From NCBI GenBank assembly GCA_963815115.1, contig CAWFFN010000009.1, positions 352,001-416,000 on the forward strand: a DNA stretch of 64,000 bases, read 5' to 3'. Both the position numbers and the translations under genes were made by a program. The notes under the pieces are model-generated. The model was not told the DNA's origin. It worked only from the letters and a program-made list of their open reading frames with translations, and made no database searches. Source of the DNA: an uncultured delta proteobacterium. GTDB taxonomy: Bacteria > Desulfobacterota > Binatia > DP-6. Positions 176 to 18,030 of this stretch are shown one piece after another; the first letter of the stretch is position 1; every line of letters starts with the position of its first letter.

Positions 176-679
176 TTAGCGCGACTCCAGCTTCTTCAAG
201 ATGGTCGTGATTTTGACCGCGATCGCCCGATCTGTGGCGTTCGCTCGATCTCCGCGCGCCTTCGTGAGGATCGTGTTGACGCCGAGGACGCGGCCATCGC
301 TGCCTACCAGCGGCCCGCCGCTGCTTCCCGCAGCGATCAAAGCATCGTGGACAATCACCACCTCGTTCACAGCGTGGACCGTGCCCGTAGACGCCGCGAC
401 AACGTCGCGGCCCTGGGGGAAGCCAATTGCTGTCACCCCTTCACCCTCCGTGATAGGCCCTTCACGAACTGGCAATGGTTTCGCTTTCACCGGTGACTGA
501 AGAACGGCGAAGTCCAAGTCTCGATCCACATAGATGACCGTCGCGATCACGCCGGCTCCCTGCCCAGATGACAGACGGGCGCTGGAAGCACCAGCAAGGA
601 CGTGAGCGTTGGTGGCGACTAGGGCGTCCGTGACGAAGAATCCCGATCCGATCGTCTTGCCCGTGTCGATGCGCACTAG
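176..679 (-). pseudogene. Trypsin-like (S1C) serine protease, 5'-truncated at the 90-bp module
   Basis: GSGFFV, ATNAHV (His), DFAVL (Asp) and GSSGGPLV (Ser) motifs. The frame upstream runs into the repeat module and IS. Confidence 0.8.
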
Positions 680-769
680 CTGATAGGCACGACGAAGGGC
701 CTTTTGCCGCGGAGGCTTACAGAACGCCCCATCCCGGACCTTCGCCGCATTTTCGCCCGCTCCGTAACA
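680..769. repeat. 90-bp module R, copy 1
   Basis: ctgataggcac...ctccgtaaca. Identical at 14038-14127 and 15601-15690, diverged inverted copy at 5258-5344. Confidence 0.95.
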
Positions 770-771
770 AG

Positions 772-985
772 TTCCCACCGACCCCGGGGGTCGACCCGCG
801 ATGGAGGAAACTGGTACGGCGCCGCTGCCGGCACCGAGGTCGAGCAATGTCTGGTGCGCGAAGCCCGCTAACAAGTTGGACCCGACGTCCCGTGCGCACC
901 CGTGATTGTCGCCACGGACCGCGCGGTCCGCGAGCACGCTTGGTAGACTGCTGCCCCCAGGGACGTCACGCCGGCAGAACGGGAG
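772..985 (+). ncRNA. Putative bridge RNA region of IS110
   Basis: Hairpin-rich non-coding region (e.g. cacggaccgcgcggtccg, ctgcc...ggcag). Contains CTAACAAG (868-875) and CTTGGTAG (939-946), which match the two junctions. Transcript limits and strand are inferred. Confidence 0.65.
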
Positions 986-988
986 GAC

Positions 989-2221
989 GTGACGATGGAG
1001 GTCATCCATGCCCAGTGCGCGGGGCTCGACGTACACAAGCAGACCGTGGTGGCCTGCGTGCGGATCACGGGCGCGGGGGGCGTGCGGCGCGAGGTGCGGA
1101 CGTTTGCGACGACCGCCGCCGAGCTGCTGGCCTTGCAGGAGTGGCTGGTGGCCGCCGGCTGCACCCATGCCGTGCTGGAGTCGACGGGCGTCTACTGGAA
1201 ACCCGTGTGGCACGTGCTCGAGGACCACCTGACCCTCGTGCTGGCCAACGCGACGGCGGTGCGCAATCTGCCCGGGCGCAAGAGCGACGTGAGCGACGCG
1301 CAGTGGCTCGCGGATCTGCTCGCCCATGGGCTGGTGCGCGGCAGCTTCGTGCCGCCCGCGCCGATTCAGGCGTTGCGCGAGCTGACGCGGACGCGCAAGC
1401 AGCTCGGGCGGGAGGTCACCGCCCACAGTCAGCGGATCGAGAAGGTGCTGGAGAGCGCGGACGTGAAGCTCGCCGCGGTGCTCCGCCCGCTGCTCGGCGT
1501 CAGCGGGCGGGCGATCATCGCGGCCCTGGCGGCGGGCGAAACCGATCCCGAGCGCCTCGTGGCGTTAGCCCACCCGCGGCTGCGGCCGAAGCGGGCCGCG
1601 CTGCGGGCCGCGCTGCCCGGGCACGTCCGGCCGCATCATCGCGTCTTGCTGGGTCAGCACCTGCGGGTGGTCGAGACGCTGCGGGCGACGATCGCGGAGC
1701 TGGATGCCGCGATCGGGGCCGCCGTCGCCCCGTATCGCGCCGCCGTCGACCACCTCGTGACGATGCCCGGCGTGAGCACGACGGCGGCGCAGATCCTGGT
1801 CGCGGAGATCGGCACGGACATGAGCCGCTTCCCCAGCGCGGGGCATCTCGTCTCCTGGGCGGGGCTGTGTCCGCGCCAGGACGCGAGTGCGGGCAAGCAC
1901 CGCTCCACGCGCCTCCGCAAGGGGGCGCCGTGGCTCAAGCCCGTGCTCATTCAGGGCGCGTGGGCAGCGGTGCGAGGCCGCGAGGGCTACCTCCGCACCC
2001 AGTTCCTGCGCCTCAAGCATCGCCGCGGTCCGATGAAGGCCATCGTCGCGGTGGCCGCCTCCATGCTCACCGCCGCCTATTACATGCTGCGCGACGACCA
2101 AGACTATCACGACCTCGGGGCCGCCCACTTCCAGCGCGGCGACCACAACCACCTCGTCGCCGGACTCACCCGCCGCCTCCACCACCTCGGTTACGAGGTC
2201 ACGCTCCGCCCCGCCGCCTGA
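989..2221 (+). CDS. IS110-family DEDD transposase/recombinase
   Basis: GLDVHK, LESTG and KSDVSDA (DEDD RuvC-like); MPGV...AEIG and GLCPRQDASAGK (catalytic Ser region). Confidence 0.97.
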   Translation: MTMEVIHAQCAGLDVHKQTVVACVRITGAGGVRREVRTFATTAAELLALQEWLVAAGCTHAVLESTGVYWKPVWHVLEDHLTLVLANATAVRNLPGRKSDVSDAQWLADLLAHGLVRGSFVPPAPIQALRELTRTRKQLGREVTAHSQRIEKVLESADVKLAAVLRPLLGVSGRAIIAALAAGETDPERLVALAHPRLRPKRAALRAALPGHVRPHHRVLLGQHLRVVETLRATIAELDAAIGAAVAPYRAAVDHLVTMPGVSTTAAQILVAEIGTDMSRFPSAGHLVSWAGLCPRQDASAGKHRSTRLRKGAPWLKPVLIQGAWAAVRGREGYLRTQFLRLKHRRGPMKAIVAVAASMLTAAYYMLRDDQDYHDLGAAHFQRGDHNHLVAGLTRRLHHLGYEVTLRPAA

Positions 2222-2250
2222 CGCCGCGTACCGAGCGAGTTACTTGGTAG

Positions 2251-3226
2251 AAGCGCGGGTCGCGCATCCCGTCCTTGCCGCCCATCGCTTCGAGGTCCTT
2301 CCTCCAGCTCTTCCCGTAGGGCGGGTTGGCGAGCATGAAGTCGAACTCTTGGGCGGGGAAGGCGTCATGCGACAGCGTGGACCACTCCGCGCCGCCGACG
2401 ATGTGATCGGCGCTCTCGCCTTCGCCTTTGAGCAGCATGTCCGCCTTGCAGACGGCGTACGTCTCGGGGTTGATCTCCTGACCGTAGAGCAGGCACTTGA
2501 CCACTTGGTCGTGCTTCGCGGCGATTGCCGTGAGCGTCTCCTCGCCCACGGTGAGCATGCCGCCGGTGCCGCAGGCACAGTCGTAGAGCAAGTATGTGCC
2601 GGACTTGATCTCCGCCTCGATGGGCAGGAACACGAGGTTCGCCATGAGGCGCACAGCGTCGCGCGGCGTCCAGTGCTCGCCCGCCTCCTCGTTGTTCTCC
2701 TCGTTGAACCGGCGGACCAGCTCCTCGAAGACCGTGCCCATCGCGTGGTTGTCGATGCCCGCCGGCGAGAGGTCGATCGTCGGGTCGAGGAACTTGTTGA
2801 TCAGCGTGCCGATGGCGTCGGCTTTGGAGAGCGTCTGGAGCTGATTGCGGAACTTGAAGTTGTCGAGGATGTCCTGAACGTTTGGCGAGAACCCGTTGAG
2901 GTAGTCCTCGAAGTCGGCGAGCAGCTGCTGCTGGCTGCCACGGGACTTGAGGTCACGCAGCGTGAACTTCGAGGTGTTGTAAAAGGCTTGGCCGGCAGCG
3001 TCGCAGAGCGCGGCGCGCTGCTCGGTGATGCGCGCCTCGTCGAGCATCTTCTTGGTGGCGAGCACCTGTGGCTTGGGGTCGGTTCGAGGACCGCGTCCAT
3101 ACGCCGGATGACGCACATCGGCAGGATCACATCGGGGTACTTGCCGCGTCTGAAAAGGTCGCGCAGGACGTCGTCGGCGATGCCCCAGATGAACGAGACG
3201 ATTTTGTTGTGGGTCGCTTGGTCCAT
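2251..3226 (-). pseudogene. hsdM: Type I restriction-modification methyltransferase, N-terminal half, truncated by IS110 and frameshifted near 3080
   Basis: IVSFIWGIADDVLRD, AGEHWTPRD, YDCACGTGGML, YGQEIN and NPPY motifs. Ends at RDPRF at the IS junction. Confidence 0.92.
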
Positions 3227-3699
3227 TCTGGCGTTCGCCCTCCCTCAGTACCCGCGGCGCGGCGCACTCATCTCGCGGGACTGCGCGACGCTCAAGACCT
3301 TCACGTTCGCGTGCACATTCGCCAGCAGTCGCTTCAACCTATCGGTGAGGTGCGTGTTGGCGAAGAGGACGGCTGGCTTGCTGTAGTCGTCGGGGCGGTG
3401 CCGCGGAGCACGCTTGCCAAGGCGGCCGCGAGGTCTTGGTCGCGCGTGCTGCCGCGCAGCACGTCGTTGCGAGGGGTGCAGAGGTCGAAGAGGGATTTCA
3501 CGCGTCCGCGCCTCCGTGGCGACCGACGCGGTTGGGGTGCGTAACAAGTCGCCGCAGCGCTGCTCGCGAACCTCTGCGGCCCATCGCCGCGGGTAGTACT
3601 GTCCGTGCCGGTACGCAGTCAACAAGGGCCGCCGACAGGCACCGATAGGCAGCGTGGTCCACGCCAAGACCGGCTCAGGCGATCCCGAGATCGGTTCGT

Positions 3700-4254
3700 C
3701 CACCACGGAGCGCACCGAAGCCGTGCGGCTGCTCAAGACGTTGCGCCGCCGGGGCTTCCGCCCCACCACGGTCGGCGGGGACAAGGCCTACGACACGGAG
3801 CACTTCGTCGAGGACGTGCGCGCGCTCGGCATCGCGCCGCACGTGGCGCAGAACATCACCAAGTATCGCGGCTCGCGGATCGATGCGCGCACGACCCGAC
3901 ATGCCGGTTACACGGTGAGTCAGTGGTGTCGGAAGCGGGTCGAGGAAATCTTCGGCTGGGGCAAGACCATCGGCGGCCTGCGGAAGACCCGCTACCGCGG
4001 CCGCGAGCGCACGGGGCTGTGGGCGTACCTCGTAGGGAGCGCGTACAACCTGCTCCGCATGGCGAAGCTGCTCCCGGAGACCGCGGTCACATGACGATGC
4101 GGCGTCGACAACGCGTCCCTCACCGCGCCCGCCGCCGCCCAACAGGACGGCGAGGGAACCCGTCTCCCGATCTCGGCCGCCGCTGACCGATCCGAGAAGG
4201 AGAGCCAGCCACATGGAACGAGTCGCCATCACCGATTCTTCAGCATCCTGCTAG
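3700..4254 (+). mobile_element. IS5-family remnant: C-terminal transposase (to 4094) plus right end ending in CTAG
   Basis: GGDKAYDT, PHVAQN, RKRVEEIFGWGK motifs; ttcagcatcctg-CTAG terminus. Confidence 0.8.
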
Positions 4255-4448
4255 ATGAGTTCGTGCTTGTGCTTGGTGACCTCACGTCCGAGGATGTGGT
4301 CGGCCGCCTTCTGGGCACGACTTCCTGCAAAGATCACCGCCTGCGGAGTGCTTCTCAAGACCCGAAGCCAGCTCTCGATATACGAGGCCGCCAGCTCCGC
4401 GGTCGCCGCAGAGATTCCTGCCTCGGCGCAGAGGAAGGCAGCGGTCAT
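4251..4448 (-). pseudogene. ArdC-like antirestriction protein, C-terminal fragment
   Basis: AAFLCAEAGI...ASYIESWLRVL...AGSRAQKAADHIL resembles the ArdC C-terminus. Confidence 0.75.
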
Positions 4449-4602
4449 CTCGGCGGTTCAGAGGCTCAGAGGCTCAGCCCGGGCGATATCCCAGTCGCTG
4501 TTGAACGCCGGTGAGCGGAGGCTCCGATGGTGGCCGTTTGCGCGACCTCCTTACCACGACCGCAGATCGAGATTCCCGCACTTCTCGCTGATCGCCAACA
4601 GC

Positions 4603-4950
4603 TTAGAGGCCGAGGTGATCCTTGTGCTGGCCGCGCCTGCGCTGCGGCCGCATCGTCGCGCCGTTGCCGTTGCCCTCGCCGCCCCCGCCACTCCGCCGCC
4701 GTACCCCCGGGCGTGCCTTGGCCTGGAGATGAATCGTGAAGCCATTCATGAAGAGGTTGAACACCTCGCGGTCGCCGAGCCGGTGGACCGCGCTGGCCAA
4801 GCTCTGCGGCATGTCCATCGGGACGTGCTCGCAATACTCGTCCGCCGTCCCGTGAATGGGGCATGTTGCGCCGGGCTTCCTCACCCCGACGTGGACGGGG
4901 ACCTCTTTCCAGTCCAACTCTCCCGTGATCGTGATCGTTCCGACTGCCAT
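4603..4950 (-). CDS. Hypothetical protein
   Basis: ORF with RBS-like gagagag before the ATG; CPIHG...YCEH possible metal site. Confidence 0.45.
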   Translation of the reverse strand: MAVGTITITGELDWKEVPVHVGVRKPGATCPIHGTADEYCEHVPMDMPQSLASAVHRLGDREVFNLFMNGFTIHLQAKARPGVRRRSGGGGEGNGNGATMRPQRRRGQHKDHLGL

Positions 4951-5053
4951 CTCTCTCGTCTCCTTCTGCGTGCCGCGTTGGTTGATGGCTGAGCCAGACC
5001 ATATGAGAGGGGGCTCGCGCAAGAGCGCATGTGCCTAGTTTAGTACTAATAGT

Positions 5054-5256
5054 TTCACGCGGGTTTCTTGCGCGACTTTCTCACGGATGATTTGCCCGCA
5101 TGATTCACGCGAGTTTCTCCCACGACGTTCTCACGGATGATTTGCCCGCATGATTCACGCGAGTCTCTGCCGCGACGTTCTCACGGATGATTTGCCCGCA
5201 TGATTCACGCGAGTCTCTGCCGCGACGTTCTCACGCATGATTTGCCCGCATGATTC
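5054..5256. repeat. Tandem repeat, 4 x 50 bp
   Basis: Unit ttcacgcgagtctctgccgcgacgttctcacggatgatttgcccgcatga starts at 5054, 5104, 5154 and 5204. Confidence 0.95.
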
Positions 5257-5257
5257 T

Positions 5258-5344
5258 TGTTACGGAGCGGGCGACAATGCGGCGAAGGTCCGGGATGGGG
5301 CGTTCCGTAAACCTTCGCAAAACCCCGTTCATCGCTCCTATCGG
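5258..5344 (-). repeat. 90-bp module R, diverged inverted copy
   Basis: Reverse complement ccgataggagc...ttacggaacgccccatcccggaccttcgccgcattgtcgcccgctccgtaaca-AG. Same two endpoints as the other copies. Confidence 0.9.
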
Positions 5345-5345
5345 C

Positions 5346-5611
5346 ACGAGGTGGAGATCAACGCGCCGGTCTCCCGCGTCGCGGAGCACGAGGCGGGCGG
5401 GCAAGCCCGGAGCGTCGCTGAACCCTAGCGCCGCGAGCGCCGCAAGCGCGCGGGATTCGTCGGCCCGCCTGACGACCAGGTCGAGGTCGTCGTGTTGCCG
5501 TGTCTGCCTACGGAGAAGCGCGTCCACGCCCCAACCACCGTCGATGCACGTTTGGACCCCCACCGCCTCCAGTTGCTCCAGCACCGCGATGACGTCTCGC
5601 GCGCTCATCAT
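5346..5611 (-). pseudogene. Nucleotidyltransferase (ANT(2'')/Lnu-like), 3'-truncated at module R
   Basis: IDGGWGVDALL...HDDLDL...RVDLH motifs. Confidence 0.85.
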
Positions 5612-6539
5612 GCAGGCCACTCAAGCGGAGCGGCCTGGGGCTATCAAGTTGGACACGCACTAGCTAGCACGGCCCGGCACCCGCGCTGGGGGCAACCGGC
5701 AACCCGACAACCTCTTTCGGCGCCCTGTCGCGAAGAAAACCGCGGGGGCGCCGCCTCGCGGGCCGGCCCACCGTGGGAAGGACCCGCGTCATCGCACGGT
5801 CGTCGACGGCGGCGGTCACTGTGGCGCTCGCAACGCACGCGGGTCGTCACCACCACAGCATCGCGATCGATCGCGGTACTCGAATGCAGCCCCGCCACTT
5901 ACCGTGCATATTTCAGTGGATGTCGGCCTGCCACCCTCGCTTGGAGCCCGACGACGCTCTCGTTCGACCACCACCCCGTCGAGAGCGTTGCCCATAGCAC
6001 GTTTCAAAGTCCCGAAGGTCGAGGCGGCAGTGGTGCGCCCGCACTCAGCCGTACTTCGTCTCGCGCGCCCGCTGGCGCGTTGACGCCGCGCAGAGGATGG
6101 CAGTAGGCTGTGATTTCTGTCTCATCGTCTAGCACTGTTCATCGTTGGGATCGTCGGCCTGTCGCTCGCCGCCACGCGAGGACGTGCCGCGGCGGCGTGC
6201 CCGAACACCTCCACGCAGCAGACTGGCCGAGTGCAAGCGGATGTGCCCCGCGGGTGGACACGGGCGCCGCGACTGCCGGGCGGCCTGCAGCGAGCGGAGC
6301 ACGTGCACCGCCCCGGGCGCGCGCATCCGGACGCTCGCCTAAGTGGTGAGCGAGTGCACCACCGACCCGCAGGGGCGGAGCTCGCTGAAGCAGAAGCTCC
6401 TCATCCGCCGCGGGAACTGAGGCAAGCTTGCTCGAGCGAGAGGACGAGTCGACCGCGGAGGGGGGCTCGCGTGATCGCTTGCGAGACGTTCACCGGCGTG
6501 AGGCATCCGTTGGGGGTGCAGGGCTGCTGCGCACGGCCT

Positions 6540-6746
6540 TCGCCGACGCGATGGCCGGCCGCGGGGCGTGTCGTGTTCCTCACCGCTGAACCGACGATCG
6601 GCAAGACTCGCGCGGCCGCGGAGTTCGCTAAAATAGCGCCCCGAGCCGCCGGGGTTGTGCTGTGGGGCCCCTGCTACGACGCCGAGTGGGCGCCACCGTT
6701 CGGGCCCTTCGCCGAAGCGATCGCCGTCCCGACCCAGCTCCGATGA
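6540..6746 (+). pseudogene. AAA ATPase (AAA_16-type) fragment
   Basis: GRVVFLTAEPTIGKTR (degenerate Walker A) followed by LWGPCY...PPFGPFAEAI. Confidence 0.6.
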
Positions 6747-9130
6747 GACGACTCGCCGCCATTGATTGGCTCCTGCTTGGCATCTCGCTGCCAATCTTGC
6801 TGTTCAGTCTGGTGATGTCCGTGGTACACGGCGTCCGTGGCGACTTCGTGGTCCCGACGTTCTGGGCAACGTCGGCGGCGGACGAGCAGTCGTATCCGGT
6901 GGTGGGACGAATCTGGTCACGCCCGAGCGGGGAGGCGAGCCCGGTCGCGGTGGGAGACCGCCTAGTGCGGCTGGAGGAAAGCGACCTTCGTGGTGTGTCC
7001 AACGCGGGATTCATGCTGCGCTGGTCGCAAGCGGCGCAGGCCGGTGCCCGCTCACTGCTCTTGACGATCGACCGCGGCAGCGTGCGCTCCGACGTCCGCG
7101 TGCTCCTCGTTCCCGGGTATGGCCCGGTTGGGATTACTTGGTGGGCGCCGCTTCCGTTTATCGCCGGCAGCGTTGTCACTGCGCTGCTCCTGCTCGTGCG
7201 TGGCGCCCACTGGCACCTCGCGCGGCGCTACTACGTGGCGAGCGTGCTCTTGGTGTTATCGATCGGGCCTTACTTTGCGGTCCCGACCGCGCCCCGGGCC
7301 GAACTCATCACCGATGTGCTGGTTCTCCCGCTGGCCTGCGGGCTTTTCCTCTGGAACCTCAACGAGTTCCTCCCACGCCTGCGGCTGTGGGGTCCCGGAC
7401 AGCGAGCGCTGACCTCGGCACTGGCGCTCCTGCTGTCGGTATCGTTCGCGGCTGATTTCTGGTTGCCCGATGTGGGGTTGGCGGCGATTTTCTCGGGGGC
7501 GGCTCCGCTCGCACTGACTGGCTTCAGCATCGCATCACTCGTGGCGCTCACGCGCGTGTACCAGCGCGCGGACCCTCTCGGGCGCCGGCAGATCAAGTGG
7601 GTGGTCTACGGCTTCTACGTGGGTCTGTTGCCCCTCGGCCTCTTCTGCGGCGTCCTCTCGCTCGGCGTCGCCCCCGAGTGGATCAGCGCGCTCTTCGCTG
7701 TTGCGACGATTGCAGCGGTGGCGGTACCGCTCGGTCTCCTGGTGGCCATCGCCTTCTATCAATTCTTAGATATCGACCGCCTATTCAGCGCCACCCTTTC
7801 CTACAGCATACTGACAGTCCTCGCCCTCGCCGTGGTGCTCGGTGTGATGCCGGCGGCTTCGCGCACGGCGAGCGACGTCCTCGGACTCGACCCGGTAGCC
7901 GGCCAGCTCCTCGTCTCCCTTGGCCTTGCGGCTGTCCTCGTCCCCGCGCACCGGATCGTGCGGCCGTGGATCGACCGACGGCTATTCCCGCAGCGTGCCA
8001 CGCTTGAGCAGGGGTTCGAGCAGTTGCTCGGGGAGATCTCGACTGCGGCGGACATGCAGCAGCTGACCCAGCTGACGAGCGAGCGACTCGACACGTTGCT
8101 GCGTCCGGCCGTCGTCGTCCTCTATGCCCGTGCCGGCGATGGCTTCACGCCACTGGCAGCGCGCGGTCGCAGCGCGCCGCCCGCCTTCGCTGCGGGGAGC
8201 CCCCTTATCGCGGCGCTCCAAGAGCGCACCACGCCACTCGCCGCAAGGCGCTGGACGGTGCGCCGGACGGCATCCCTGACGCCCTTTGAACGAGCGGCGA
8301 TCGAGACCCTCGACGTCGCGGTGCTCGTACCGATTCGACGCGGGGCCGACCTCGCGGCGTTCTGGTGCCTCGGAGCGAAGCGCTCCGGCGACATCTACAC
8401 GCCGACCGATCTTGCCGTGCTCGGCGCCGTTGCCGGGGCGATCTCGGATCGCTTGCTCGCGCTTGGCGAGACGCGATCAGAGGATCGACTCGAGGACAGC
8501 CCCCGGCACGCTCCGGCGTCGCCGGATGCTGCAGCGAGCCCACCGCTGACAGCTGCGGCGGCAGACGACGCGGGCGTCTTCCGGCGGGAGGGTGAATACT
8601 GGGCGGTGGCATACCGGGGCAAGACGGCCCGCCTGCGGGACACGAAAGGCTTGTACTACATCGCCCGGCTGCTCGCGCAGCCCGGCCGCGAATTGCACGT
8701 GCGCGACCTTGCCACGATGAACCAGCAGAGTGATACGGGCAACGGTTCCGAGCCCATGGGCGTGGAAGGCGACCTGGGAACGATTCTCGATGCGCGGGCC
8801 ACGGCGCAATACAAACAGCGGCTGGCTGAAGCGCGCCAGGAACTCGACGAGGCCACCGCGGCGGGCGATCTCGGGCAGGCGGCGCGCGCGCGGCATGAAA
8901 TAGAGACCATTACCGAGCAACTCGCCGCCGCCTACGGGCTCGGCGGCCGGCTGCGCACGGCTGGCGATCCGGCCGAACGCATGCGCAAAGCGGTGACCAA
9001 TCGGATTCGCCACGCCCTCGACCGGATCTCCGCCGCGCACCCAGAGCTCGGCCGCCATCTCACCAACGCGCTCCGGACCGGCTTTGTGTGCGCCTACCGC
9101 CCCGAGCACCCGGTGGCGTGGCGCCTCTGA
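6743..9130 (+). CDS. Multi-TM membrane sensor with PDZ-like loop, GAF-like domain and C-terminal putative DNA-binding domain
   Basis: VAVGDRLVRL, ~8-10 TM segments, RRQIKW, LDIDRLF, LGAKRSGDIYTPTD; C-terminus FRREGEYW...RKAVTNRIR...RTG..C.Y.P. Confidence 0.85.
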   Translation: MRRLAAIDWLLLGISLPILLFSLVMSVVHGVRGDFVVPTFWATSAADEQSYPVVGRIWSRPSGEASPVAVGDRLVRLEESDLRGVSNAGFMLRWSQAAQAGARSLLLTIDRGSVRSDVRVLLVPGYGPVGITWWAPLPFIAGSVVTALLLLVRGAHWHLARRYYVASVLLVLSIGPYFAVPTAPRAELITDVLVLPLACGLFLWNLNEFLPRLRLWGPGQRALTSALALLLSVSFAADFWLPDVGLAAIFSGAAPLALTGFSIASLVALTRVYQRADPLGRRQIKWVVYGFYVGLLPLGLFCGVLSLGVAPEWISALFAVATIAAVAVPLGLLVAIAFYQFLDIDRLFSATLSYSILTVLALAVVLGVMPAASRTASDVLGLDPVAGQLLVSLGLAAVLVPAHRIVRPWIDRRLFPQRATLEQGFEQLLGEISTAADMQQLTQLTSERLDTLLRPAVVVLYARAGDGFTPLAARGRSAPPAFAAGSPLIAALQERTTPLAARRWTVRRTASLTPFERAAIETLDVAVLVPIRRGADLAAFWCLGAKRSGDIYTPTDLAVLGAVAGAISDRLLALGETRSEDRLEDSPRHAPASPDAAASPPLTAAAADDAGVFRREGEYWAVAYRGKTARLRDTKGLYYIARLLAQPGRELHVRDLATMNQQSDTGNGSEPMGVEGDLGTILDARATAQYKQRLAEARQELDEATAAGDLGQAARARHEIETITEQLAAAYGLGGRLRTAGDPAERMRKAVTNRIRHALDRISAAHPELGRHLTNALRTGFVCAYRPEHPVAWRL

Positions 9131-9152
9131 AACGATGCGACGCCCATCTGGA

Positions 9153-9180
9153 TGTAGCGTCGCTACACGGCCTGTAGCGC
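9153..9180. promoter_or_regulatory. Candidate operator TGTAGCGTCGCTAC-N6-TGTAGCGC
   Basis: Palindrome plus extra half-site; same motif and spacing at 9607-9634. Confidence 0.65.
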
Positions 9181-9196
9181 CTGGATTCATGGCGCC

Positions 9197-9598
9197 ATGC
9201 CGTCACGGGACTCAATTCACGACCGGGTGCACCGCACACCGATCTTTCGCCGCGAAGGGGATTACTGGACGATCGAGTACGACGCAGCGGTGGTGCGGCT
9301 TCGGGACGCCAAGGGGCTGCGCTATATCGAGCCGCTGCTGCGGCATCCCGGCCGCTCCTTTCACGTCGCCGAGCTGATCCGCGTGGCGGACTGCCCGGAC
9401 GGGCGCCGGCCGGCGGCGGACGACGGAACCGCCGAGGCCGTCGAGCGTGCCCGCAAAGCCGTCACCAACCGCATCCGGGGGACGCTGGCGCGGATCGCCA
9501 ACGTCCACCACGCCCTGGGGCTCCACCTGCGCAACGCGGTCCACACCGGGACGCGCTGCGTCTACACGCCGGAGCGGCCGACCGGATGGGCGGAATGA
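9197..9598 (+). CDS. Stand-alone paralog of the upstream sensor's C-terminal domain
   Basis: FRREGDYW...LRDAKGLRYI...ERARKAVTNRIR...HTGTRCVYTP aligns with the sensor C-terminus but lacks the central helical segment. Confidence 0.85.
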   Translation: MPSRDSIHDRVHRTPIFRREGDYWTIEYDAAVVRLRDAKGLRYIEPLLRHPGRSFHVAELIRVADCPDGRRPAADDGTAEAVERARKAVTNRIRGTLARIANVHHALGLHLRNAVHTGTRCVYTPERPTGWAE

Positions 9599-9606
9599 AC
9601 CTGTCG

Positions 9607-9634
9607 TGTAGCGTCGCTACGCCAGTTGTAGCGC
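9607..9634. promoter_or_regulatory. Candidate operator, second copy
   Basis: TGTAGCGTCGCTAC-gccagt-TGTAGCGC. Confidence 0.65.
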
Positions 9635-9801
9635 CACATAAGGCGTTCGGATGAACGAGCTGAAGCTTCGGCGCAGCTCAAACGTACGAAGGAGGCAGGA
9701 ATGAGCGAGAGGGATTCGAAAATGCCTGTCCGTTCCCTCGGGGGCATTCGTATCTTCTCGATGGCGCAGAATCGTTACAGACGAGCGAAAGGAGACCAAC
9801 T

Positions 9802-10311
9802 ATGAAACGAATTTCAAGCCTTATGCTCATGGCGGCTGCCATGATGTTCCTCGGCCTGCGGCCAACCGGCGCCGCAGCGGATGAACCAATCGTTGGCCTT
9901 TGGCAGGTAACCTGGAAGGACGCCGTCACCCAAGCGGTGGTTCTCAATGTCTGGGACGTCTGGCATGCGGACCGGACAGAGACCCAGAACGACACCACTC
10001 CGATACTGATCGGAAACGTCTGCCAGGGTGCGTGGATTCCGCTTGGGAAGCGAACCTACGGCCTGACTCACCCGGCTTTCAACTTTCTGAGCGCGCCTGA
10101 GGATCAAGAGGGTCAACCCGATTCCAGCAACAGCGCCCTGGTACTGGAACGAGTGACGGTTTCGAAGGATGGGAACACCCTTCAGGGCCTGGGGATCTAT
10201 AAGACGATCGCGGGCATGGATCCCCTGGACCCTCACGCGGCCGTGCTGAGTTCTGAGAATATCACCATCACCGGGAAGCGGGTCCAGGTCGACCAGACTC
10301 AACTTCCCTAG
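9802..10311 (+). CDS. Secreted beta-barrel (lipocalin-like) hypothetical protein
   Basis: Signal peptide, PIVGLW motif, strong RBS aaaggag. Confidence 0.8.
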   Translation: MKRISSLMLMAAAMMFLGLRPTGAAADEPIVGLWQVTWKDAVTQAVVLNVWDVWHADRTETQNDTTPILIGNVCQGAWIPLGKRTYGLTHPAFNFLSAPEDQEGQPDSSNSALVLERVTVSKDGNTLQGLGIYKTIAGMDPLDPHAAVLSSENITITGKRVQVDQTQLP

Positions 10312-10426
10312 TCTGTGAGGGGGGAACATCAGATGCATGTTCCCTGTCAGTGTCAATCTCGGGGGCTCGGCGGCCCACCCGGGCATCCGAACACCACCAA
10401 CGACGAACCGAAGGGAGAACCCGCGC

Positions 10427-11389
10427 ATGTTGTATAGTCTGATGACCCGCGTCCCCTGCATCAGCCGCCTCGTTCTCGCTGTCGTCGCGCTTGTTGCCGT
10501 AGGAGCGGCACCAGCCGGGGCCGACTGCACCCGCGCGAAACTGAAGGCCATCGGCAAGAAGGAATCGGGTCTCCTCGCCTGCCAGGCGAAGGTCGCAGCG
10601 AGCGGCGACTCCTCCGGCCTCTCGGCTTGCGAATCGAAGGTGATGGCCAAGTTTAGCCACGCGTTCGGGAATGCCGGCACCTGCATGGGCGACCAGACGG
10701 CGTGTGAGAGCATCGCAGACGGCTGCGAGTCGTCGGTTGCCGGGGCTTTCATCGACACCTTCCCGAGCGACTGCGAGGTCCGGAAGCGGAAGGCGGCGGG
10801 AAAGCTCGCGAAGGGCGAACTCGGGTGCTACGCGAAGGCCGCAACGAAGGGACTGCCGGTGGATAGCGTGGTCTGCATCCCGAAGTCCACGATGAAGTTC
10901 TCGGTGGCGCTAACCAAGGCGGGGACGTGCCCGGACGGCGGCTCGCCCCAGAGTTTCGTCGAGAGCCACTGCGTCACCCCAGCCGTCACAACCGACGGTG
11001 GCGGCGTCGTGACCGATGTATGTCCGACTACCACGACCACGACCACGCTGCCCCCGCAGCCGTGCACCTCCGTCGTGGGCGGCTTCTGCTGGTACCTGGG
11101 TGCGTTTGATGCGGACTGTGACGCTACCTGTGCGGCGGAGGGACGGGTGTACGACGCCGCGACAGCTACGTATGCGGGCAGTTCGGGAACCAACGCGAAC
11201 TGCGAGGCTGTTCTCACTGCTTTGGGTCACCCGGGATCGGTCGCTGACGGATCGCTGAGCGTTGGCGGCGGTTTCGGCTGTTCTTGGATCTGCCCTAGAG
11301 GCTGCGGGGTAGGATTCCGCGACATCGGTGAGACGACCACATCTGGAGCCTCCGCCGCGCTATTCCAGCGGGCTTGTGCGTGCATGTAG
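10427..11389 (+). CDS. Secreted Cys-rich protein with poly-Thr linker
   Basis: Signal peptide, repeated Cys-helical units, TTTTTT linker, C-terminal Cys domain ending RACACM. Confidence 0.8.
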   Translation: MLYSLMTRVPCISRLVLAVVALVAVGAAPAGADCTRAKLKAIGKKESGLLACQAKVAASGDSSGLSACESKVMAKFSHAFGNAGTCMGDQTACESIADGCESSVAGAFIDTFPSDCEVRKRKAAGKLAKGELGCYAKAATKGLPVDSVVCIPKSTMKFSVALTKAGTCPDGGSPQSFVESHCVTPAVTTDGGGVVTDVCPTTTTTTTLPPQPCTSVVGGFCWYLGAFDADCDATCAAEGRVYDAATATYAGSSGTNANCEAVLTALGHPGSVADGSLSVGGGFGCSWICPRGCGVGFRDIGETTTSGASAALFQRACACM

Positions 11390-11526
11390 CCAAGGAAGAA
11401 CCCACAGCCCCAGGCGCTCCGAGTCTGCCCCTTCTCATTACAAGCTAACACAGTGAACCCCACCACAAGTGTTGCGACGTACCGCACCGCACCAAGGCCG
11501 CTCGAGACCGAAGGGAGGACCCGTTC

Positions 11527-11847
11527 ATGTTGTATAGTCTGACGACCCGCATCGCCTTGGTGCTCGCCCTGGCGGTGACGGGGGCACGGCCCGCCGGCGC
11601 CGCCGACCAGACCATCCTCGGCCGCCGGCTCGTGGTGAAGAACCCCCTCGGGGAGGCGGACAGCACCGGCAAGCGGCAGTTTGTGGTCAAGGCGAGGGAG
11701 ATCGGGAGCCCCGACACCATCGTGGGTGACCCTACCGCCGCCGGCGCCAGCCTCTCGATCACGCTCAATGACGGCACGCAGCCGTGCACCGCTGGCCTGG
11801 GTGGCCACGCCGAGAAGGCGAAAGCGCCGAGAAGGACGCCACGATGA
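11527..11847 (+). CDS. Secreted protein, probably truncated
   Basis: Signal peptide; DQTILGRRLVVKNP resembles the N-terminal domain of the next gene. Confidence 0.6.
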   Translation: MLYSLTTRIALVLALAVTGARPAGAADQTILGRRLVVKNPLGEADSTGKRQFVVKAREIGSPDTIVGDPTAAGASLSITLNDGTQPCTAGLGGHAEKAKAPRRTPR

Positions 11848-13790
11848 CGCAGTACACGCGAGCCTTGGTCGTCCTGGTGTGGGTCGTGCTCGGGGCGAGC
11901 ACGCTCCGAGCGGCGGACGAAGTGATCCTCGGCACGCAGGTCCGGATCAAAGACCCGACGGGGGTCGAGGACCGGCGGCAGGTGAAGGTGGTCGGGAAGG
12001 AATCCCAGACCGCCTTGCCGACGCCCCTCGCGCAGCCGGGTGCGGGGGCCACGTTGACGGTGGTTACGCAGGGGACGACGCCCAGCGCGCAGGCGTTCGT
12101 GCTGACCGGCACCTGGGTGGCGGCGGGGTCCAGTGGCTGGAAGTACGTGGCGGGCGGCACCGCGCCGGTGAAGTTGCTCCTCCTCAATCGGACGGCGAAC
12201 GGGACGGCGCAGCTGAAGGTGCTGCTCAAGGGGAATGTGGGCACCGACCCGCTGACCCTTGTGCCGCCGAACCTAGGCACGGAGGCCGGCATCATTCTCG
12301 ATGACGGCAACGGGACGCGGTATTGCCTGCGCCTCGGTGGCGCGGCGGGCGGGGTCGTGAAGAAGAACGACGCGACGCAGTTCTTCCTCGGGGTGCGTGC
12401 GACTGCCCCGGCAATCGAGGCGGGGTGCCCGACGACCACGACGACCAGCACGACGTTGCCGAGCACGACGACCACGACGACCACGACGTTCACGAGCACG
12501 ACGACGTTGGGGTCTCAATGTGGTCAATATCCGACGTGCGCTGACAGCTGTCCCACCGGTCAAGCCTGCGGGGTGTTCTGTGGGTTCAGAGGGTGCGGTT
12601 GTTTCTGCGTCCCGTCCGACGAATGTGCGGGTTCGGCACCAACCTGTGGCGGGTCGTGCCCCAGCGGCCAGGTCTGTAGCCCACTGAACGGCGTGAACGC
12701 CTGTGAGTGCGGATACACCTGCGATTCTTCCGAGGCGCCGACGTGTGGCGGAACGTGCCCCCCGGGGCAGGTGTGCGGGCAGGGAACGGGCACCACCGCC
12801 TGCACGTGCGTCACGCCCGACAACACCTGCGGCATTTCCCAGGGACCCACGTGCGGCGGGACGTGCCCCAGCGATGGGGCCTGCCGTCCGAGTTCGGGTG
12901 GAAACTCCTGCGAGTGCGTGTGCGGCTCGCCGCCGCTTTGCCCCTTCGTCACCAAGTGGGGCAGTACGGGTAGCGGGCACGGGCAGTTCAACGTCCCCTT
13001 GGGCGTCGCCGTGGATGCGAGCGGGCACGTCTTCGTCGCCGACGCACATAACGACCGCATCCAGAAGTTCCGGAGCGATGGGACCTTCGTCACCCAGTGG
13101 GGCAGCAACGGCAGCGGGGACGGGCAGTTCAGCTTCCCTGTTGGCGTCGCCGTGGATGGGAGCGGCAACGTCTACGTCGCCGACACGAACAACGAGCGTA
13201 TCCAGAAATTCACGAACACCGGGACCTTCCTGACGAAGTGGGGCAGCGGCCCCGAGCCCGGGGGCGTCGCCGTGGATGCGAGCGGGAACGTCTTCGTCGC
13301 CGAATCCAACGGCTCGCGTATCGACAAGTTCACGAACACCGGGACCTTCCTGCTCACCTTCGGGACCGAAGGCTCGGGGGATGGGGAGTTCGCTAACCCC
13401 GTCGGCGTCGCTGTTGATGGGAGCGGGAACGTCTTCGTCGCCGACGGCAGCTTCTTCTTCCCCGGCAACAACCGCATTCAGAAGTTCACGAACGCCGGGT
13501 CCTTCTTGACCAAGTGGGGCAGCCCGGGCAGCGGAGACGGGCAGTTCGATCAGCCCCAAGGGATCGCCGTGGACGGGAGCGGGAACGTGTTCGTCACCGA
13601 GGGCTCCCACAACACCCGCATCCAGAAGTTCACGAACACCGGCACGTTTCTCGGGCAATGGGGTTGCAATGTCGCCGGCAGCGCGGATGGGTTGTTCAGC
13701 GACCCCCGCGGGCTTGCCGTGGATGGGAGCGGTAACGTCTACGTCGCCGACTCCCTAAACAGCCGCATCCAGAAGTTCGCGTGTCCATAA
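11844..13790 (+). CDS. Secreted protein with Cys-rich repeats and NHL-repeat beta-propeller
   Basis: PTCGGTCP repeats; six GVAVD.SGNV(F/Y)V...N.RIQKF repeats. Confidence 0.92.
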   Translation: MTQYTRALVVLVWVVLGASTLRAADEVILGTQVRIKDPTGVEDRRQVKVVGKESQTALPTPLAQPGAGATLTVVTQGTTPSAQAFVLTGTWVAAGSSGWKYVAGGTAPVKLLLLNRTANGTAQLKVLLKGNVGTDPLTLVPPNLGTEAGIILDDGNGTRYCLRLGGAAGGVVKKNDATQFFLGVRATAPAIEAGCPTTTTTSTTLPSTTTTTTTTFTSTTTLGSQCGQYPTCADSCPTGQACGVFCGFRGCGCFCVPSDECAGSAPTCGGSCPSGQVCSPLNGVNACECGYTCDSSEAPTCGGTCPPGQVCGQGTGTTACTCVTPDNTCGISQGPTCGGTCPSDGACRPSSGGNSCECVCGSPPLCPFVTKWGSTGSGHGQFNVPLGVAVDASGHVFVADAHNDRIQKFRSDGTFVTQWGSNGSGDGQFSFPVGVAVDGSGNVYVADTNNERIQKFTNTGTFLTKWGSGPEPGGVAVDASGNVFVAESNGSRIDKFTNTGTFLLTFGTEGSGDGEFANPVGVAVDGSGNVFVADGSFFFPGNNRIQKFTNAGSFLTKWGSPGSGDGQFDQPQGIAVDGSGNVFVTEGSHNTRIQKFTNTGTFLGQWGCNVAGSADGLFSDPRGLAVDGSGNVYVADSLNSRIQKFACP

Positions 13791-14037
13791 GACAGTTGCC
13801 TGACGCAGACCCAGCGTCGCTTACTGCGACCTGCCACTTGTGTCGTTCCTGTTTGGGCTCGGGAGCGCGGTCGGCATCACGTCGATCGCGGCGGGTCTGG
13901 CGTGAAGTGGCAGCGGATCGGACTGTCGCTTCTACCCGCGTGCGACGTGCCAGTCGCGCCGGTCGCACGGGCCGAGGAGGGTACGCGCCGACTCCTCGCG
14001 TAGGGCGGCGCGCGGCGCACGTTGCTGGGACTCGTAG

Positions 14038-14127
14038 CTGATAGGCACGACGAAGGGCCTTTTGCCGCGGAGGCTTACAGAACGCCCCATCCCGGACCTT
14101 CGCCGCATTTTCGCCCGCTCCGTAACA
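14038..14127. repeat. 90-bp module R, copy 2
   Basis: Identical to 680-769. Confidence 0.95.
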
Positions 14128-15600
14128 AGTTCCCACCGACCCCGGGGGTCGACCCGCGATGGAGGAAACTGGTACGGCGCCGCTGCCGGCACGAGGTCGA
14201 GCAATGTCTGGTGCGCGAAGCCCGCTAACAAGTTGGACCCGACGTCCCGTGCGCACCCGTGATTGTCGCCACGGACCGCGCGGTCCGCGAGCACGCTTGG
14301 TAGACTGCTGCCCCAGGGACGTCACGCCGGCAGAAGGGAGGACGTGACGATGGAGGTCATCCATGCCCAGTGCGCGGGGCTCGACGTACACAAGCAGACC
14401 GTGGTGGCCTGCGTGCGGATCACGGGCGCGGGGGGCGTGCGGCGCGAGGTGCGGACGTTTGCGACGACCGCCGCCGAGCTGCTGGCCTTGCAGGAGTGGC
14501 TGGTGGCCGCCGGCTGCACCCATGCCGTGCTGGAGTCGACGGGCGTCTACTGGAAACCCGTGTGGCACGTGCTCGAGGACCACCTGACCCTCGTGCTGGC
14601 CAACGCGACGGCGGTGCGCAATCTGCCCGGGCGCAAGAGCGACGTGAGCGACGCGCAGTGGCTCGCGGACGCTCGCCCATGGGCTGGTGCGCGGCAGCTT
14701 CGTGCCGCCCGCGCCGATTCAGGCGTTGCGCGAGCTGACGCGGACGCGCAAGCAGCTCGGGCGGGAGGTCACCGCCCACAGTCAGCGGATCGAGAAGGTG
14801 CTGGAGAGCGCGGACGTGAAGCTCGCCGCGGTGCTCCGCCCGCTGCTCGGCGTCAGCGGGCGGGCATCATCGCGGCCCTGGCGGCGGGCGAAACCGATCC
14901 CGAGCGCCTCGTGGCGTTAGCCCACCCGCGGCTGCGGCCGAAGCGGGCCGCGCTGCGGGCCGCGCTGCCCGGGCACGTCCGGCCGCATCATCGCGTCTTG
15001 CTGGGTCAGCACCTGCGGGTGGTCGAGACGCTGCGGGCGACGATCGCGGAGCTGGATGCCGCGATCGGGGCCGCCGTCGCCCCGTATCGCGCCGCCGTCG
15101 ACCACCTCGTGACGATGCCCGGCGTGAGCACGACGGCGGCGCAGATCCTGGTCGCGGAGATCGGCACGGACATGAGCCGCTTCCCCAGCGCGGGGCATCT
15201 CGTCTCCTGGGCGGGGCTGTGTCCGCGCCAGGACGCGAGTGCGGGCAAGCACCGCTCCACGCGCCTCCGCAAGGGGGCGCCGTGGCTCAAGCCCGTGCTC
15301 ATTCAGGGCGCGTGGGCAGCGGTGCGAGGCCGCGAGGGCTACCTGCGCACCCAGTTCCTGCGCCTCAAGCATCGCCGCGGTCCGATGAAGGCCATCGTCG
15401 CGGTGGCCGCCTCCATGCTCACCGCCGCCTATTACATGCTGCGCGACGACCAAGACTATCACGACCTCGGGGCCGCCCACTTCCAGCGCGGCGACCACAA
15501 CCACCTCGTCGCCGGACTCACCCGCCGCCTCCACCACCTCGGTTACGAGGTCACGCTCCGCCCCGCCGCTGACGCCGCGTACGAGCGAGTTACTTGGTAG
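14128..15600 (+). mobile_element. IS110-family element, copy 2; transposase (~14344-15572) carries small deletions
   Basis: Near-identical to copy 1, with indels near 14670, 14865 and 15570. Confidence 0.92.
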
Positions 15601-15690
15601 CTGATAGGCACGACGAAGGGCCTTTTGCCGCGGAGGCTTACAGAACGCCCCATCCCGGACCTTCGCCGCATTTTCGCCCGCTCCGTAACA
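15601..15690. repeat. 90-bp module R, copy 3, directly after the IS110 right end
   Basis: ttacttggtag|ctgataggca...ctccgtaaca|gggagg. Confidence 0.95.
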
Positions 15691-15692
15691 GG

Positions 15693-15893
15693 GAGGACTG
15701 GAATTACTGGCCGTTCATCGGCACGGGTCAGGGGATTCCGCTCGACCGCACGGATCCCACGATACCGTGGACTTCGAACGGGGAGCACGTCGACCAGCAG
15801 CATTCGACCGGTTTCGGGGGCGATGGCGACCCGATCGTGGTCACGCACACGTGGCACTGGCAGCTGACCCTGGAGCCCGACCCTGGGCAGTAG
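15693..15893 (+). pseudogene. 3' fragment of an unknown gene truncated at module R
   Basis: Coding-like codon usage (EDWNYWPFIGTG...HWQLTLEPDPGQ*), with no start after the repeat. Confidence 0.5.
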
Positions 15894-16083
15894 GGTGGCA
15901 CGTCAGCGACCCCGAGCCCAGCGAGTTCCGTCGCTGCCGTGGTAAACTCCCTCATGGAAGAGCAGCGAGGGGCCCGGGTGCCGACGAGCCGTATCTTTCG
16001 CGGCCGGGAGTCGCCTCACCCGGGACACGATTGATCGGGGACGACTCCGGAGGAGAGGATCGAAGCGGTCTGGGAGTAGCTGA

Positions 16084-17994: not shown

Positions 17995-18030
17995 CGAACC
18001 TCCCGTTTCAAGTGGCTGGTCATGCCAGCG

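What the first reader, a model, noticed from the sequence alone, without database searches (positions are those of the whole stretch)
680..15690. A 90-bp module with fixed ends occurs four times, docks IS110 and marks gene breakpoints
Seen: R at 680-769, 14038-14127, 15601-15690 and diverged/inverted at 5258-5344. All copies share both endpoints while flanks vary. Left flanks: truncated protease, intergenic DNA, IS110 right end, truncated nucleotidyltransferase. Right flanks: IS110 (twice), a headless gene, a tandem array. No TSD is visible. Three copies are preceded by TAG and three are followed by AG. There is an internal inverted repeat ttac(a/g)gaacg...cgctccgtaa. Inference: R is an independent non-autonomous mobile or recombination unit that IS110 targets, or that IS110 also moves. 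Its minus-strand end CCTATC(A/G)GC loosely recalls IS91/ISCR oriIS, which could explain one-ended events without TSD.
Basis: partly seen in the sequence, partly recalled or inferred. Interest (0 to 1): 0.8.

Follow-up and report, generated by a model that had tools for sequence, protein, structure and literature searches.

The report
IS91-type end module targeted by IS110
The 90-bp repeat is the detached end-piece of a rolling-circle (IS91/ISCR-like) jumping gene, copied about 18 times into two genomic islands, and a second, RNA-guided jumping gene (IS110 family) homes precisely onto its inner edge.

Summary
R lies at window 680-769, 14038-14127 and 15601-15690 (identical) and inverted at 5258-5345. 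Genome-wide there are 18 strong copies, all in two islands, in two subtypes, with sharp ends (GCNGATAGG...CCGTAACA) and no target duplication.

The genome's only IS91-family (Y2/HUH) transposase gene has an R copy about 150 bp past its stop, with the CCTATCNGC end pointing outward. In the same bacterial family, 9 of 38 Y2 loci carry an R-like sequence downstream in that orientation, and none upstream. So R is the origin-side end module of an IS91/ISCR-like element, mostly present as transposase-less solo copies. IS801 'miniature' one-ended products are a precedent.

The IS110 element (window 772-2250) is separate. Its non-coding left end holds GCTAACAAGTT, matching the junction TAACA-AG|TT, and CTTGGTAG, matching its own right end. 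In two relatives, guide and flank change together. All 5 left junctions read TCCGTAACA-AG.

R flanks are gene fragments or captured segments, including a 1615-bp DUF1329 cassette. How solo copies acquire unrelated flanks remains inferred.

The parts
679..771 (+). R copy 1 (type A): GCT-GATAGG...CCGTAACA plus the AG that serves as the IS110 core
772..2250 (+). IS110-family element, copy 1 (1479 bp, ends ...ACTTGGTAG); transposase ORF 989-2221 with DEDD_Tnp_IS110 and Transposase_20 domains
867..877 (+). guide-like segment GCTAACAAGTT in the IS non-coding left end; equals the junction TAACA-AG|TT (left target + core + first 2 nt of the IS)
937..948 (+). guide-like segment CGCTTGGTAGAC; CTTGGTAG equals the last 8 nt of the IS (left donor + core)
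176..678 (-). outer flank of R1: trypsin-like peptidase gene fragment lacking its N-terminal part
2251..3116 (-). flank after the IS right end: HsdM fragment cut at position ~142-150 of 311 of N6_Mtase; the rest is absent from the genome; the G012 homologue continues past the junction
5054..5253 (.). 50-bp x4 tandem array next to the inner end of the inverted R copy; function unknown
5258..5345 (-). R copy 4 (type B, inverted); inner end at 5258, outer end GCC at 5343-5345
5346..5620 (-). outer flank of R4: nucleotidyltransferase (Aminoglyc_resit) fragment, positions 2-84 of 149; remainder not found in the genome
14037..14129 (+). R copy 2 (type A) plus AG core
14130..15600 (+). IS110-family element, copy 2; differs from copy 1 by 8 deleted bases and 2 substitutions; metagenome contigs show the undeleted form
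15600..15690 (+). R copy 3 (type A), abutting the IS right end; its leading G is the G of the IS core AG
15691..15957 (+). inner flank of R3: segment whose homologues in G003 (2 copies) and in metagenome contigs continue upstream with other sequence, so it is cut at the R boundary

Best explanation
Two separate mobile elements meet here.

(1) R is the roughly 90-bp origin-side (oriIS-type) terminal module of an IS91/ISCR-like rolling-circle element that encodes a HUH Y2 transposase. Its outer terminus is ...CCTATCNGC on the transposase-sense strand. Most copies are transposase-less solo modules. They end internally at ...CCGTAACA, usually followed by AG, which gives CAAG/CTTG, a tetranucleotide used by IS91-family elements as target and termination site. 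Inferred: solo copies arose as early-terminated one-ended products, as described for IS801 miniatures, and were supplied with transposase in trans. Also inferred: insertion into genes, read-through capture of adjacent DNA, and deletion between copies produced islands in which R separates unrelated gene fragments without target duplications.

(2) The 1479-bp IS110-family element is not part of R. It inserts by bridge-RNA-guided recombination at TCCGTAACA-AG, the inner edge of R, with AG as the core dinucleotide. The R-IS-R arrangement at 14037-15690 is best read as an IS insertion between two abutting R copies. The sequence matches and the guide/flank co-variation are shown. Expression and fold of the RNA, and any transposition activity, are inferred.
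For: R and the IS91 family:
- The genome has a single Y2_Tnp hit, at C5:1419746-1420378(-). Its frame carries Zn_Tnp_IS91 and Y2_Tnp and the motif NVHSHAL.
- A type-B-like R lies at C5:1418993-1419080(+), about 150 bp past the deduced stop, with its outer end pointing away from the gene.
- In the family scan, 9 of 38 Y2 loci have an R-like match within 2.5 kb downstream in that orientation, 7 of them at 490-670 bp. None has one upstream or in the other orientation.
- R-like sequences occur in 22 of 25 family genomes, often as same-orientation arrays.
- In G002, solo copies share a sharp inner boundary where the transposase-linked copy continues.
- Of the 18 strong copies, 16 have GCN before GATAGG and 16 have a purine just outside. 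There are no terminal inverted repeats and no target duplication.
- The nearest annotated transposase is ISVsa3/IS91-like, at 40.6% identity.
- Precedent: IS801 right-end fragments of 229-679 nt ending at a tetranucleotide transpose in vivo (PMC3189936, abstract and passages). IS91 facts come from PMC13181058 (passages).

Capture of adjacent DNA:
- The 1615 bp between two R copies on C5 carry a complete DUF1329 gene, 94% identical to C7:228686-230300. Homology stops exactly at both R boundaries.

IS110:
- Both transposase domains are present.
- All 4 full copies and 1 left-end fragment in non-R DNA are preceded by TCCGTAACA-AG.
- The internal 9-mer and 8-mer matches arose in 42 and 101 of 20000 shuffles respectively, and together in 0.
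- In G001 the flank is TAACAAG|TG with guide GGTAACAAGTG. In G003 the flank is TAACGAG|TG with guide GGTAACGAGTG.
- The guide layout follows PMC11208160 (passages).
Against: - No solo R examined has flanks that are contiguous elsewhere. This covers C9:416564 and the listed rows for 5 copies in L006 and 4 in the window. A simple miniature-element insertion has therefore not been seen directly.
- The only Y2 gene needs at least two frames to read through, and its own R copy is only 89-95% like the amplified subtypes. The source of transposase is therefore unclear.
- All five type-A copies carrying the CGCCCGC variant touch the IS110 element. Four other type-A copies carry CGCACGC. A metagenome contig shows an undeleted IS right end joined to R. 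Both would also fit an R+IS unit or a circle junction.
- No RNA fold supports the bridge RNA: MFE folds are no better than shuffles and Rfam gives no match.
- The bases to the right of the IS insertions (AA, CT, GC, AC) show no consensus.
- AG follows TAACA in only 11 of 18 copies.
- Which strand the literature tetranucleotides refer to could not be fixed from the passages read.
Confidence: 0.7

Rival explanations
1. R is a hitch-hiking module of the IS110 element itself, like ssr9 with ISPpu9. The IS110 recombinase would make circles of the IS alone, of R+IS, or of R alone, and solo R copies would be its products.
For: - All five CGCCCGC-variant type-A copies are in contact with the IS.
- The right-end-to-R junction at 15600/15601 looks like an R+IS circle or tandem junction. 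It recurs with an undeleted IS in a metagenome contig.
- Modular circles are documented for ISPpu9 (PMC12288879, abstract only).
Against: - 13 of 18 strong copies have no IS110 at either end.
- R's right end matches the target guide, not the donor guide. The left flanks of R+IS (CACTAG, TCGTAG, TGTGGG, CCGCGG) do not match the guide.
- R-like sequences sit downstream of Y2 transposases in 8 other loci.
- In G002, solo modules have a different inner boundary sequence that does not carry the IS-A target motif TAACA-AG.
Confidence: 0.1
2. R copies are relics left by decay. Many full IS91-like elements once sat in these islands, and deletions that happened to stop near the same internal point (for example at IS110 insertion sites) removed everything but the end.
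For: - PMC3189936 (abstract) argues that most IS801 fragments in genomes result from reorganisations rather than one-ended transposition.
- The IS110 insertion point coincides with the inner boundary in this genome.
Against: - Nine type-A copies are on average 98.6% identical to each other and six type-B copies 96.6%, whereas the transposase-linked copy is 89-95% like them. This points to recent copying of the 90-bp unit itself.
- The boundary is exact to the base in 15 copies.
- G002 shows an equally sharp boundary at a different sequence that lacks the IS-A target motif.
Confidence: 0.12
3. R is a host or cassette-type recombination site or structured RNA (an integron attC-like site, REP/REPIN, or a small RNA) that mobile elements merely target.
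For: - Same-orientation arrays with unrelated segments between copies resemble cassette arrays.
- IS110/IS1111 elements are known to target repeats (recalled, not from a call).
Against: - There is no consensus pairing in 17 aligned family members and no Rfam match.
- There are no inverse core sites at the two ends.
- Copies sit at broken genes inside two islands, not in regular intergenic positions.
- There is a fixed position and orientation behind Y2 transposases.
Confidence: 0.04

Closest known systems
IS801 'miniature' one-ended derivatives (IS91 family; Bardaji et al. 2011, PMC3189936, abstract and passages read)
   Same: They consist of the right (origin) end only, bounded internally by a tetranucleotide like the element's target/left end. 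They have no transposase and no target duplication, and are mobilised in trans.
   Different: R is much shorter (about 90 bp against 229-679 nt). It is amplified to about 15 near-identical copies in arrays. Its flanks are not contiguous. No transposition was observed here.
IS91 / ISCR elements (oriIS, terIS, one-ended transposition; PMC13181058, passages read); nearest annotated transposase ISVsa3 (ISCR2-type)
   Same: The transposase carries Zn_Tnp_IS91 and Y2_Tnp. The origin end lies downstream of the gene. Adjacent DNA is captured, and there are no inverted repeats or duplications.
   Different: The transposase is only 40.6% identical. The R profile finds nothing at the one ISVsa3 locus examined. 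The flanking-base preference is weak (a purine outside GCN) rather than a clear CTTG/GTTC.
IS621-type IS110 elements with bridge RNA (PMC11208160, passages read)
   Same: It has a DEDD recombinase. The left-end non-coding region holds one segment equal to left target + core and another equal to left donor + core. A dinucleotide core is repeated at both ends, and insertion is site-specific.
   Different: The core is AG rather than CT. The RNA and its two-loop fold are not demonstrated. No consensus is seen on the right side of the target. The target is the end of another transposable element.
ISPpu9 with its ssr9 module (PMC12288879, abstract read)
   Same: An IS110-family element is found next to a short module that also occurs alone.
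   Different: There the module uses the IS110 transposase. Here the module belongs to an IS91-family element, and its edge matches the target guide, not the donor guide.
IS1111-attC group and IS4321/IS5075 (recalled from memory, no call)
   Same: These are IS110/IS1111 relatives that home onto conserved sites of other mobile elements.
   Different: Their targets are integron attC sites or Tn21-type inverted repeats, not IS91-family ends.

Membership tests
IS91 family (R as its origin-side end) | Y2/HUH transposase (Zn_Tnp_IS91 + Y2_Tnp) in the element | tested here: met
   This holds for one R copy only: C5:1419491-1420945(-). The other 17 strong copies lack it, so they are non-autonomous. The frame is broken at least twice near the C-terminus.
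IS91 family (R as its origin-side end) | Conserved end downstream of the transposase gene, same orientation in related elements | tested here: met
   9 of 38 Y2 loci in 25 family genomes have R-like downstream in this orientation, 0 upstream and 0 in the other orientation. Many of the other 29 loci lie at contig ends or are domain fragments.
IS91 family (R as its origin-side end) | No terminal inverted repeats, no target-site duplication | tested here: met
   Flanks of 18 copies; repeat scan.
IS91 family (R as its origin-side end) | Specific tetranucleotide next to the origin end | tested here: inconclusive
   Only a purine preference just outside GCN was seen (16 of 18). Whether GCN is element or target is inferred from subtype linkage and the DUF1329 junction.
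IS91 family (R as its origin-side end) | HUH motif and catalytic tyrosine(s) | tested here: inconclusive
   NVHSHAL and ARYVLRPP were read by eye. The motif definitions are recalled, and only one Tyr was seen in that motif.
IS91 family (R as its origin-side end) | Rolling-circle transposition initiated at this end | not testable with these tools
   Needs a transposition or nicking assay.
IS801-type miniature one-ended product | Intact origin end plus an internal end at a target-like tetranucleotide | tested here: inconclusive
   CA|AG (CAAG/CTTG) is present at 11 of 18 inner ends. The strand convention of the literature could not be fixed.
IS110 family / bridge-RNA element | DEDD_Tnp_IS110 and Transposase_20 domains | tested here: met
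IS110 family / bridge-RNA element | Non-coding RNA guides matching target and donor | tested here: met
   Sequence matches at 867-877 and 937-948, a shuffle control, and co-variation in G001 and G003.
IS110 family / bridge-RNA element | Two-loop RNA structure, transcription | tested here: inconclusive
   MFE z-scores were +0.81 and +0.60. There was no Rfam match. No RNA data were examined.
IS110 family / bridge-RNA element | Site-specific insertion with the core dinucleotide at both ends | tested here: met
   5 of 5 left junctions read TCCGTAACA-AG. 4 of 4 full copies end in AG.
Integron attC site | Imperfect palindrome with inverse core sites at both ends | tested here: not met
   There were no consensus pairs in alignment A1. 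The ends GCNGATAGG and CCGTAACA are not inverse copies. An integron integrase was not searched for.
MITE | Terminal inverted repeats and target duplication | tested here: not met

The most novel reading that the evidence does not exclude
In this family of soil bacteria, the 90-100-bp origin modules of an ISCR-like rolling-circle element may act as the joints of a cassette-building system. Each module would carry both cleavage sites of the HUH transposase. Modules and the DNA next to them would be copied and stacked head-to-tail into arrays of captured genes and gene fragments, a functional analogue of an integron built by a HUH enzyme. At least two IS110 lineages would then have evolved bridge-RNA guides against different positions of this module, using another transposon's end as a safe landing pad.
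Probability: 0.2. Interest if true: 0.7.

Novelty: new variant of a known kind. Interest (0 to 1): 0.5.

Why it matters
IS91/ISCR elements are known mainly from clinical plasmids, where they capture resistance genes. How they pick up and stack DNA is still debated.

This genome and its relatives offer natural material for that question. They hold many near-identical solo origin modules with base-exact boundaries, at least one complete captured gene between two modules, and same-orientation arrays in several genera.

The locus also gives a clean natural example of bridge-RNA targeting, with guide and target changing together. It shows that IS110 elements can specialise on the end of an unrelated transposon.

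My searches listed no paper describing IS110 insertion into IS91-family ends (listings only). I therefore cannot say it is unpublished.

Tried and rejected
- Rfam scan of window 1-20000 at E<=1: no match.
- RNAalifold on 17 R-like sequences: no pairs.
- MFE folds of the IS110 left ends: no better than shuffles.
- DNA folds of R: weak, -10 to -14 kcal/mol.
- Open-frame test across excised R copies: uninformative, because at 70% G+C long open frames are common.
- GC3 filter: recovered few genes.
- My by-eye reading that the DNA upstream of the C8:54333 left-end fragment is a diverged R was wrong. nhmmer finds no R there. Only the last ~12 nt resemble R, which in fact helps define the IS110 target.
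- Partner halves of broken genes: the N6_Mtase and Aminoglyc_resit families each hit only the fragment itself.
- Empty-site search: no listed subject joins both flanks of any R. One search left 73 rows unlisted.
- The left (terminating) end of the IS91-like element could not be defined. Y2 loci are 67-90% alike in the coding part only.
- The ISVsa3 locus L073 shows no R-like end.
- Read laying: 13800-14012 had no cover in any run, and the other three runs held only short pieces.
- Supplementary files of papers were not opened. Target tables in the supplements of PMC13181058 and PMC11208160 could bear on the tetranucleotide and guide claims.
- In one search I merged 4 of the 42 Y2 rows (G003:C8:241628, G020:C21:23399, G005:C2:9491, G021:C164:1233) into the neighbouring row of the same gene, giving 38 loci.
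Full report
**1. Observation**

Direct reading and the repeat scan confirm three identical direct copies of R at 680-769, 14038-14127 and 15601-15690. They also confirm an inverted, diverged copy at 5258-5345. An IS110-family element follows copies 1 and 2. Copy 3 follows the right end of the second IS, so 14037-15690 reads R-IS-R.

IS copy 1 spans 772-2250. Copy 2 differs by 8 deleted bases and 2 substitutions.

**2. Genome-wide picture**

The window is G000:C9:352001-416000 in a 6.9-Mb, 70% G+C genome of 12 contigs.

- blastn found 19 R hits.
- Iterated nhmmer found 25 hits, 18 of them above 70 bits.
- The 18 strong copies lie only in C9:318,222-428,692 (9 copies, 8 on the + strand) and C5:1,376,330-1,419,080 (9 copies, 7 on the + strand).
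- Two subtypes dominate. Type A has 9 copies with mean pairwise identity 98.6%. Type B has 6 copies with mean 96.6%.
- Both ends are sharp. GCN precedes GATAGG in 16 of 18 copies. The base outside that is a purine in 16 of 18. ...CCGTAACA is followed by AG in 11 of 18.
- No two copies share a flank apart from the IS110 element, and there is no duplication.
- The IS110 element follows 4 of the 18 copies.

**3. What R is**

The genome has one IS91-family transposase gene, with a Y2_Tnp hit at C5:1419746-1420378 on the minus strand. Its 485-codon open frame carries Zn_Tnp_IS91 and Y2_Tnp. The C-terminal part continues in other frames. The gene is therefore either decayed or the assembly has indel errors there.

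A type-B-like R lies about 150 bp beyond the deduced stop, with CCTATCGGC as the outermost sequence on the transposase-sense strand.

I then scanned the 25 genomes of the same taxonomic family:

- 19 have Y2_Tnp hits.
- A sequence-only model of 17 aligned R-like sequences (A1, R1) matches in 22 of 25 genomes.
- Of 38 Y2 loci, 9 have an R-like match within 2.5 kb downstream in the expected orientation, 7 of them at 490-670 bp. None has one upstream or in the other orientation.
- Many of the remaining loci sit at contig ends, are domain fragments, or belong to other IS91 subgroups.

This placement matches the origin (oriIS) end of IS91-family elements. According to the passages read in PMC13181058, that end lies downstream of tnpA, abuts a target tetranucleotide, makes no duplication, and suffices within about 82 bp.

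The nearest annotated transposase in plasmids is 'IS91-like element ISVsa3 family', at 40.6% identity. No R-like sequence was found at that one locus.

R shows no conserved pairing and no Rfam match. That fits a protein-recognised DNA end rather than an RNA.

**4. Solo modules**

Solo origin ends are not unique to this genome. In G002, three copies share about 102 nt up to ...GGTTGCCGCGG and then diverge. One of the three is the transposase-linked copy, which continues into the element. Same-orientation arrays are seen in G002, G013, G007 and G006.

A published precedent exists. IS801 (IS91 family) produces and transposes 229-, 360- and 679-nt 'miniature' right-end fragments, each bounded by a tetranucleotide like its left end (PMC3189936, abstract and passages).

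R's inner edge, TAACA|AG, contains CAAG/CTTG, one of the IS91-family tetranucleotides. I could not fix the strand convention from the passages read. I therefore read R as a very short product of the same kind. This step is inferred.

**5. Why R marks gene breakpoints**

Pfam scans of flanking frames show broken genes at both kinds of boundary.

At outer ends:
- a trypsin-like peptidase lacking its N-terminal part;
- a sigma-54 activator cut inside the AAA+ domain;
- a nucleotidyltransferase fragment covering positions 2-84 of 149.

At inner ends:
- an LPG_synthase_TM gene lacking its C-terminus, while the G001 homologue continues;
- an integrase reduced to its N-terminal SAM-like domain;
- a carboxyl transferase lacking its first ~70 profile positions.

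Behind IS right ends:
- an HsdM fragment;
- a DDE transposase fragment.

The missing halves of hsdM and of the nucleotidyltransferase are nowhere in the genome.

One inter-R segment is informative. The 1615 bp between the R copies at C5:1400726 and C5:1402432 carry a complete DUF1329 gene and are 94% identical to C7:228686-230300. Homology stops exactly at the inner end of one R and the outer GCC of the next. This is a captured segment.

Homologues of the DNA right of R3 (two copies in G003, plus metagenome contigs in X3 and X4) continue upstream with other sequence from exactly position 15691/15692.

No R examined has flanks that are contiguous elsewhere (listed rows only). A plain 90-bp insertion has therefore not been observed. 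I infer a mix of insertion, read-through capture and deletion between copies.

**6. The IS110 element**

It encodes DEDD_Tnp_IS110 and Transposase_20 and has four full copies, each directly after a type-A R. Its right flanks differ: AAGCGC, R itself, GCGGCG and ACGGCG.

A 93%-identical left-end fragment at C8:54333 lies in DNA that is not R. It is nonetheless preceded by TTCCGTAACAAG.

Inside the non-coding left end:
- 867-877 reads GCTAACAAGTT. TAACAAGTT equals the junction of left flank, AG, and the first two IS bases.
- 937-948 reads CGCTTGGTAGAC. CTTGGTAG equals the IS right end.

Matches this long arose in 42 and 101 of 20000 shuffles respectively, and never together.

In IS621, the left target and left donor guides have the sequence of the top strand up to and including the core (PMC11208160, passages). 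The layout here is the same, with AG as core.

Relatives co-vary with their flanks:
- G001: flank TAACAAG|TG, guide GGTAACAAGTG.
- G003: flank TAACGAG|TG, guide GGTAACGAGTG.

The left flanks of R (CACTAG, TCGTAG, TGTGGG, CCGCGG) do not match the guide. The IS therefore starts after R, and R's inner edge is its target. R-IS-R then implies two abutting R copies before insertion.

**7. Open points**

- All five CGCCCGC-variant type-A copies touch the IS.
- An X1 contig joins an undeleted IS right end to R. This keeps a small probability for an R+IS unit or circle, as with ISPpu9 modules (PMC12288879, abstract). X1 may be the source sample. If so, the deletions in IS copy 2 are probably assembly errors.
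- A second IS110 lineage (59% amino-acid identity) sits at one and the same position inside two diverged R-like copies.
- A third lineage begins with an R-outer-end-like sequence.

Both extra lineages were only partly followed up.

**8. Verdict**

R is the origin-side end module of an IS91/ISCR-like element, present mostly as solo copies. The IS110 element is an independent, RNA-guided element that homes on R's inner edge.

This is a new variant of known kinds. The known kinds are one-ended IS91-family miniatures and IS110 elements targeting repeats. The unusual features are the degree of amplification, the array formation, and the cross-family targeting.

Noticed in passing
L050 (G000:C8:220336-221900) and L006 (G000:C5:1395064-1396628, minus strand): A second IS110-family element (59% aa identity to the window's, two copies 99% alike) sits at the same position inside two diverged, inverted R-like copies. 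Its right flank is the reverse complement of R-like positions 1-47. Its left end holds CGTCGATAAGTT, resembling its left flank CGTCGGATAAG|TT.
   Followed up: partly
L005 (G000:C5:1374836-1376306) and five other left-end copies: A third IS110-family element begins with GCMGATAGSCGTAGCAATGAAGACGG, which resembles the outer end of R. One copy lies 25 nt from an R whose first bases are altered, with GAGCCGATAGGAA on its other side.
   Followed up: partly
window 14130-15600 and G000:C5:1419169-1420945: IS copy 2 differs from copy 1 almost only by single-base deletions that metagenome contigs do not show. The Y2 transposase gene also needs several frames. The assembly may carry indel errors.
   Followed up: partly
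window 5054-5253: Four tandem 50-bp units directly abut the inner end of the inverted R copy. Their nature (iterons or cargo) is unknown.
   Followed up: no
L009 (G000:C8:808611-808854 and the 25 nt after it): A right-end fragment of an IS-A relative is followed by CCCACCGCCCTTCCGTAAC. This resembles the sequence that precedes the left-end fragment at C8:54333. It is unexplained; it could be a tandem target or a junction remnant.
   Followed up: partly
L054, L055, L057, L058 (G002:C3): Four R-like copies share only their first ~60 nt and then continue into a common sequence of at least 130 nt. This suggests yet another element inserted at a fixed point of R-like.
   Followed up: no
window 11784-13790: An NHL-repeat beta-propeller gene accounts for repeat families D1, D5 and D6 (141-nt periodicity).
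   Followed up: partly
window 10407-10457 and 11507-11557; 17127-17238 and 19984-20095; 49035-49130 and 62909-63004: Further two-copy direct repeats (88%, 96% and 79% identity) that I did not examine.
   Followed up: no
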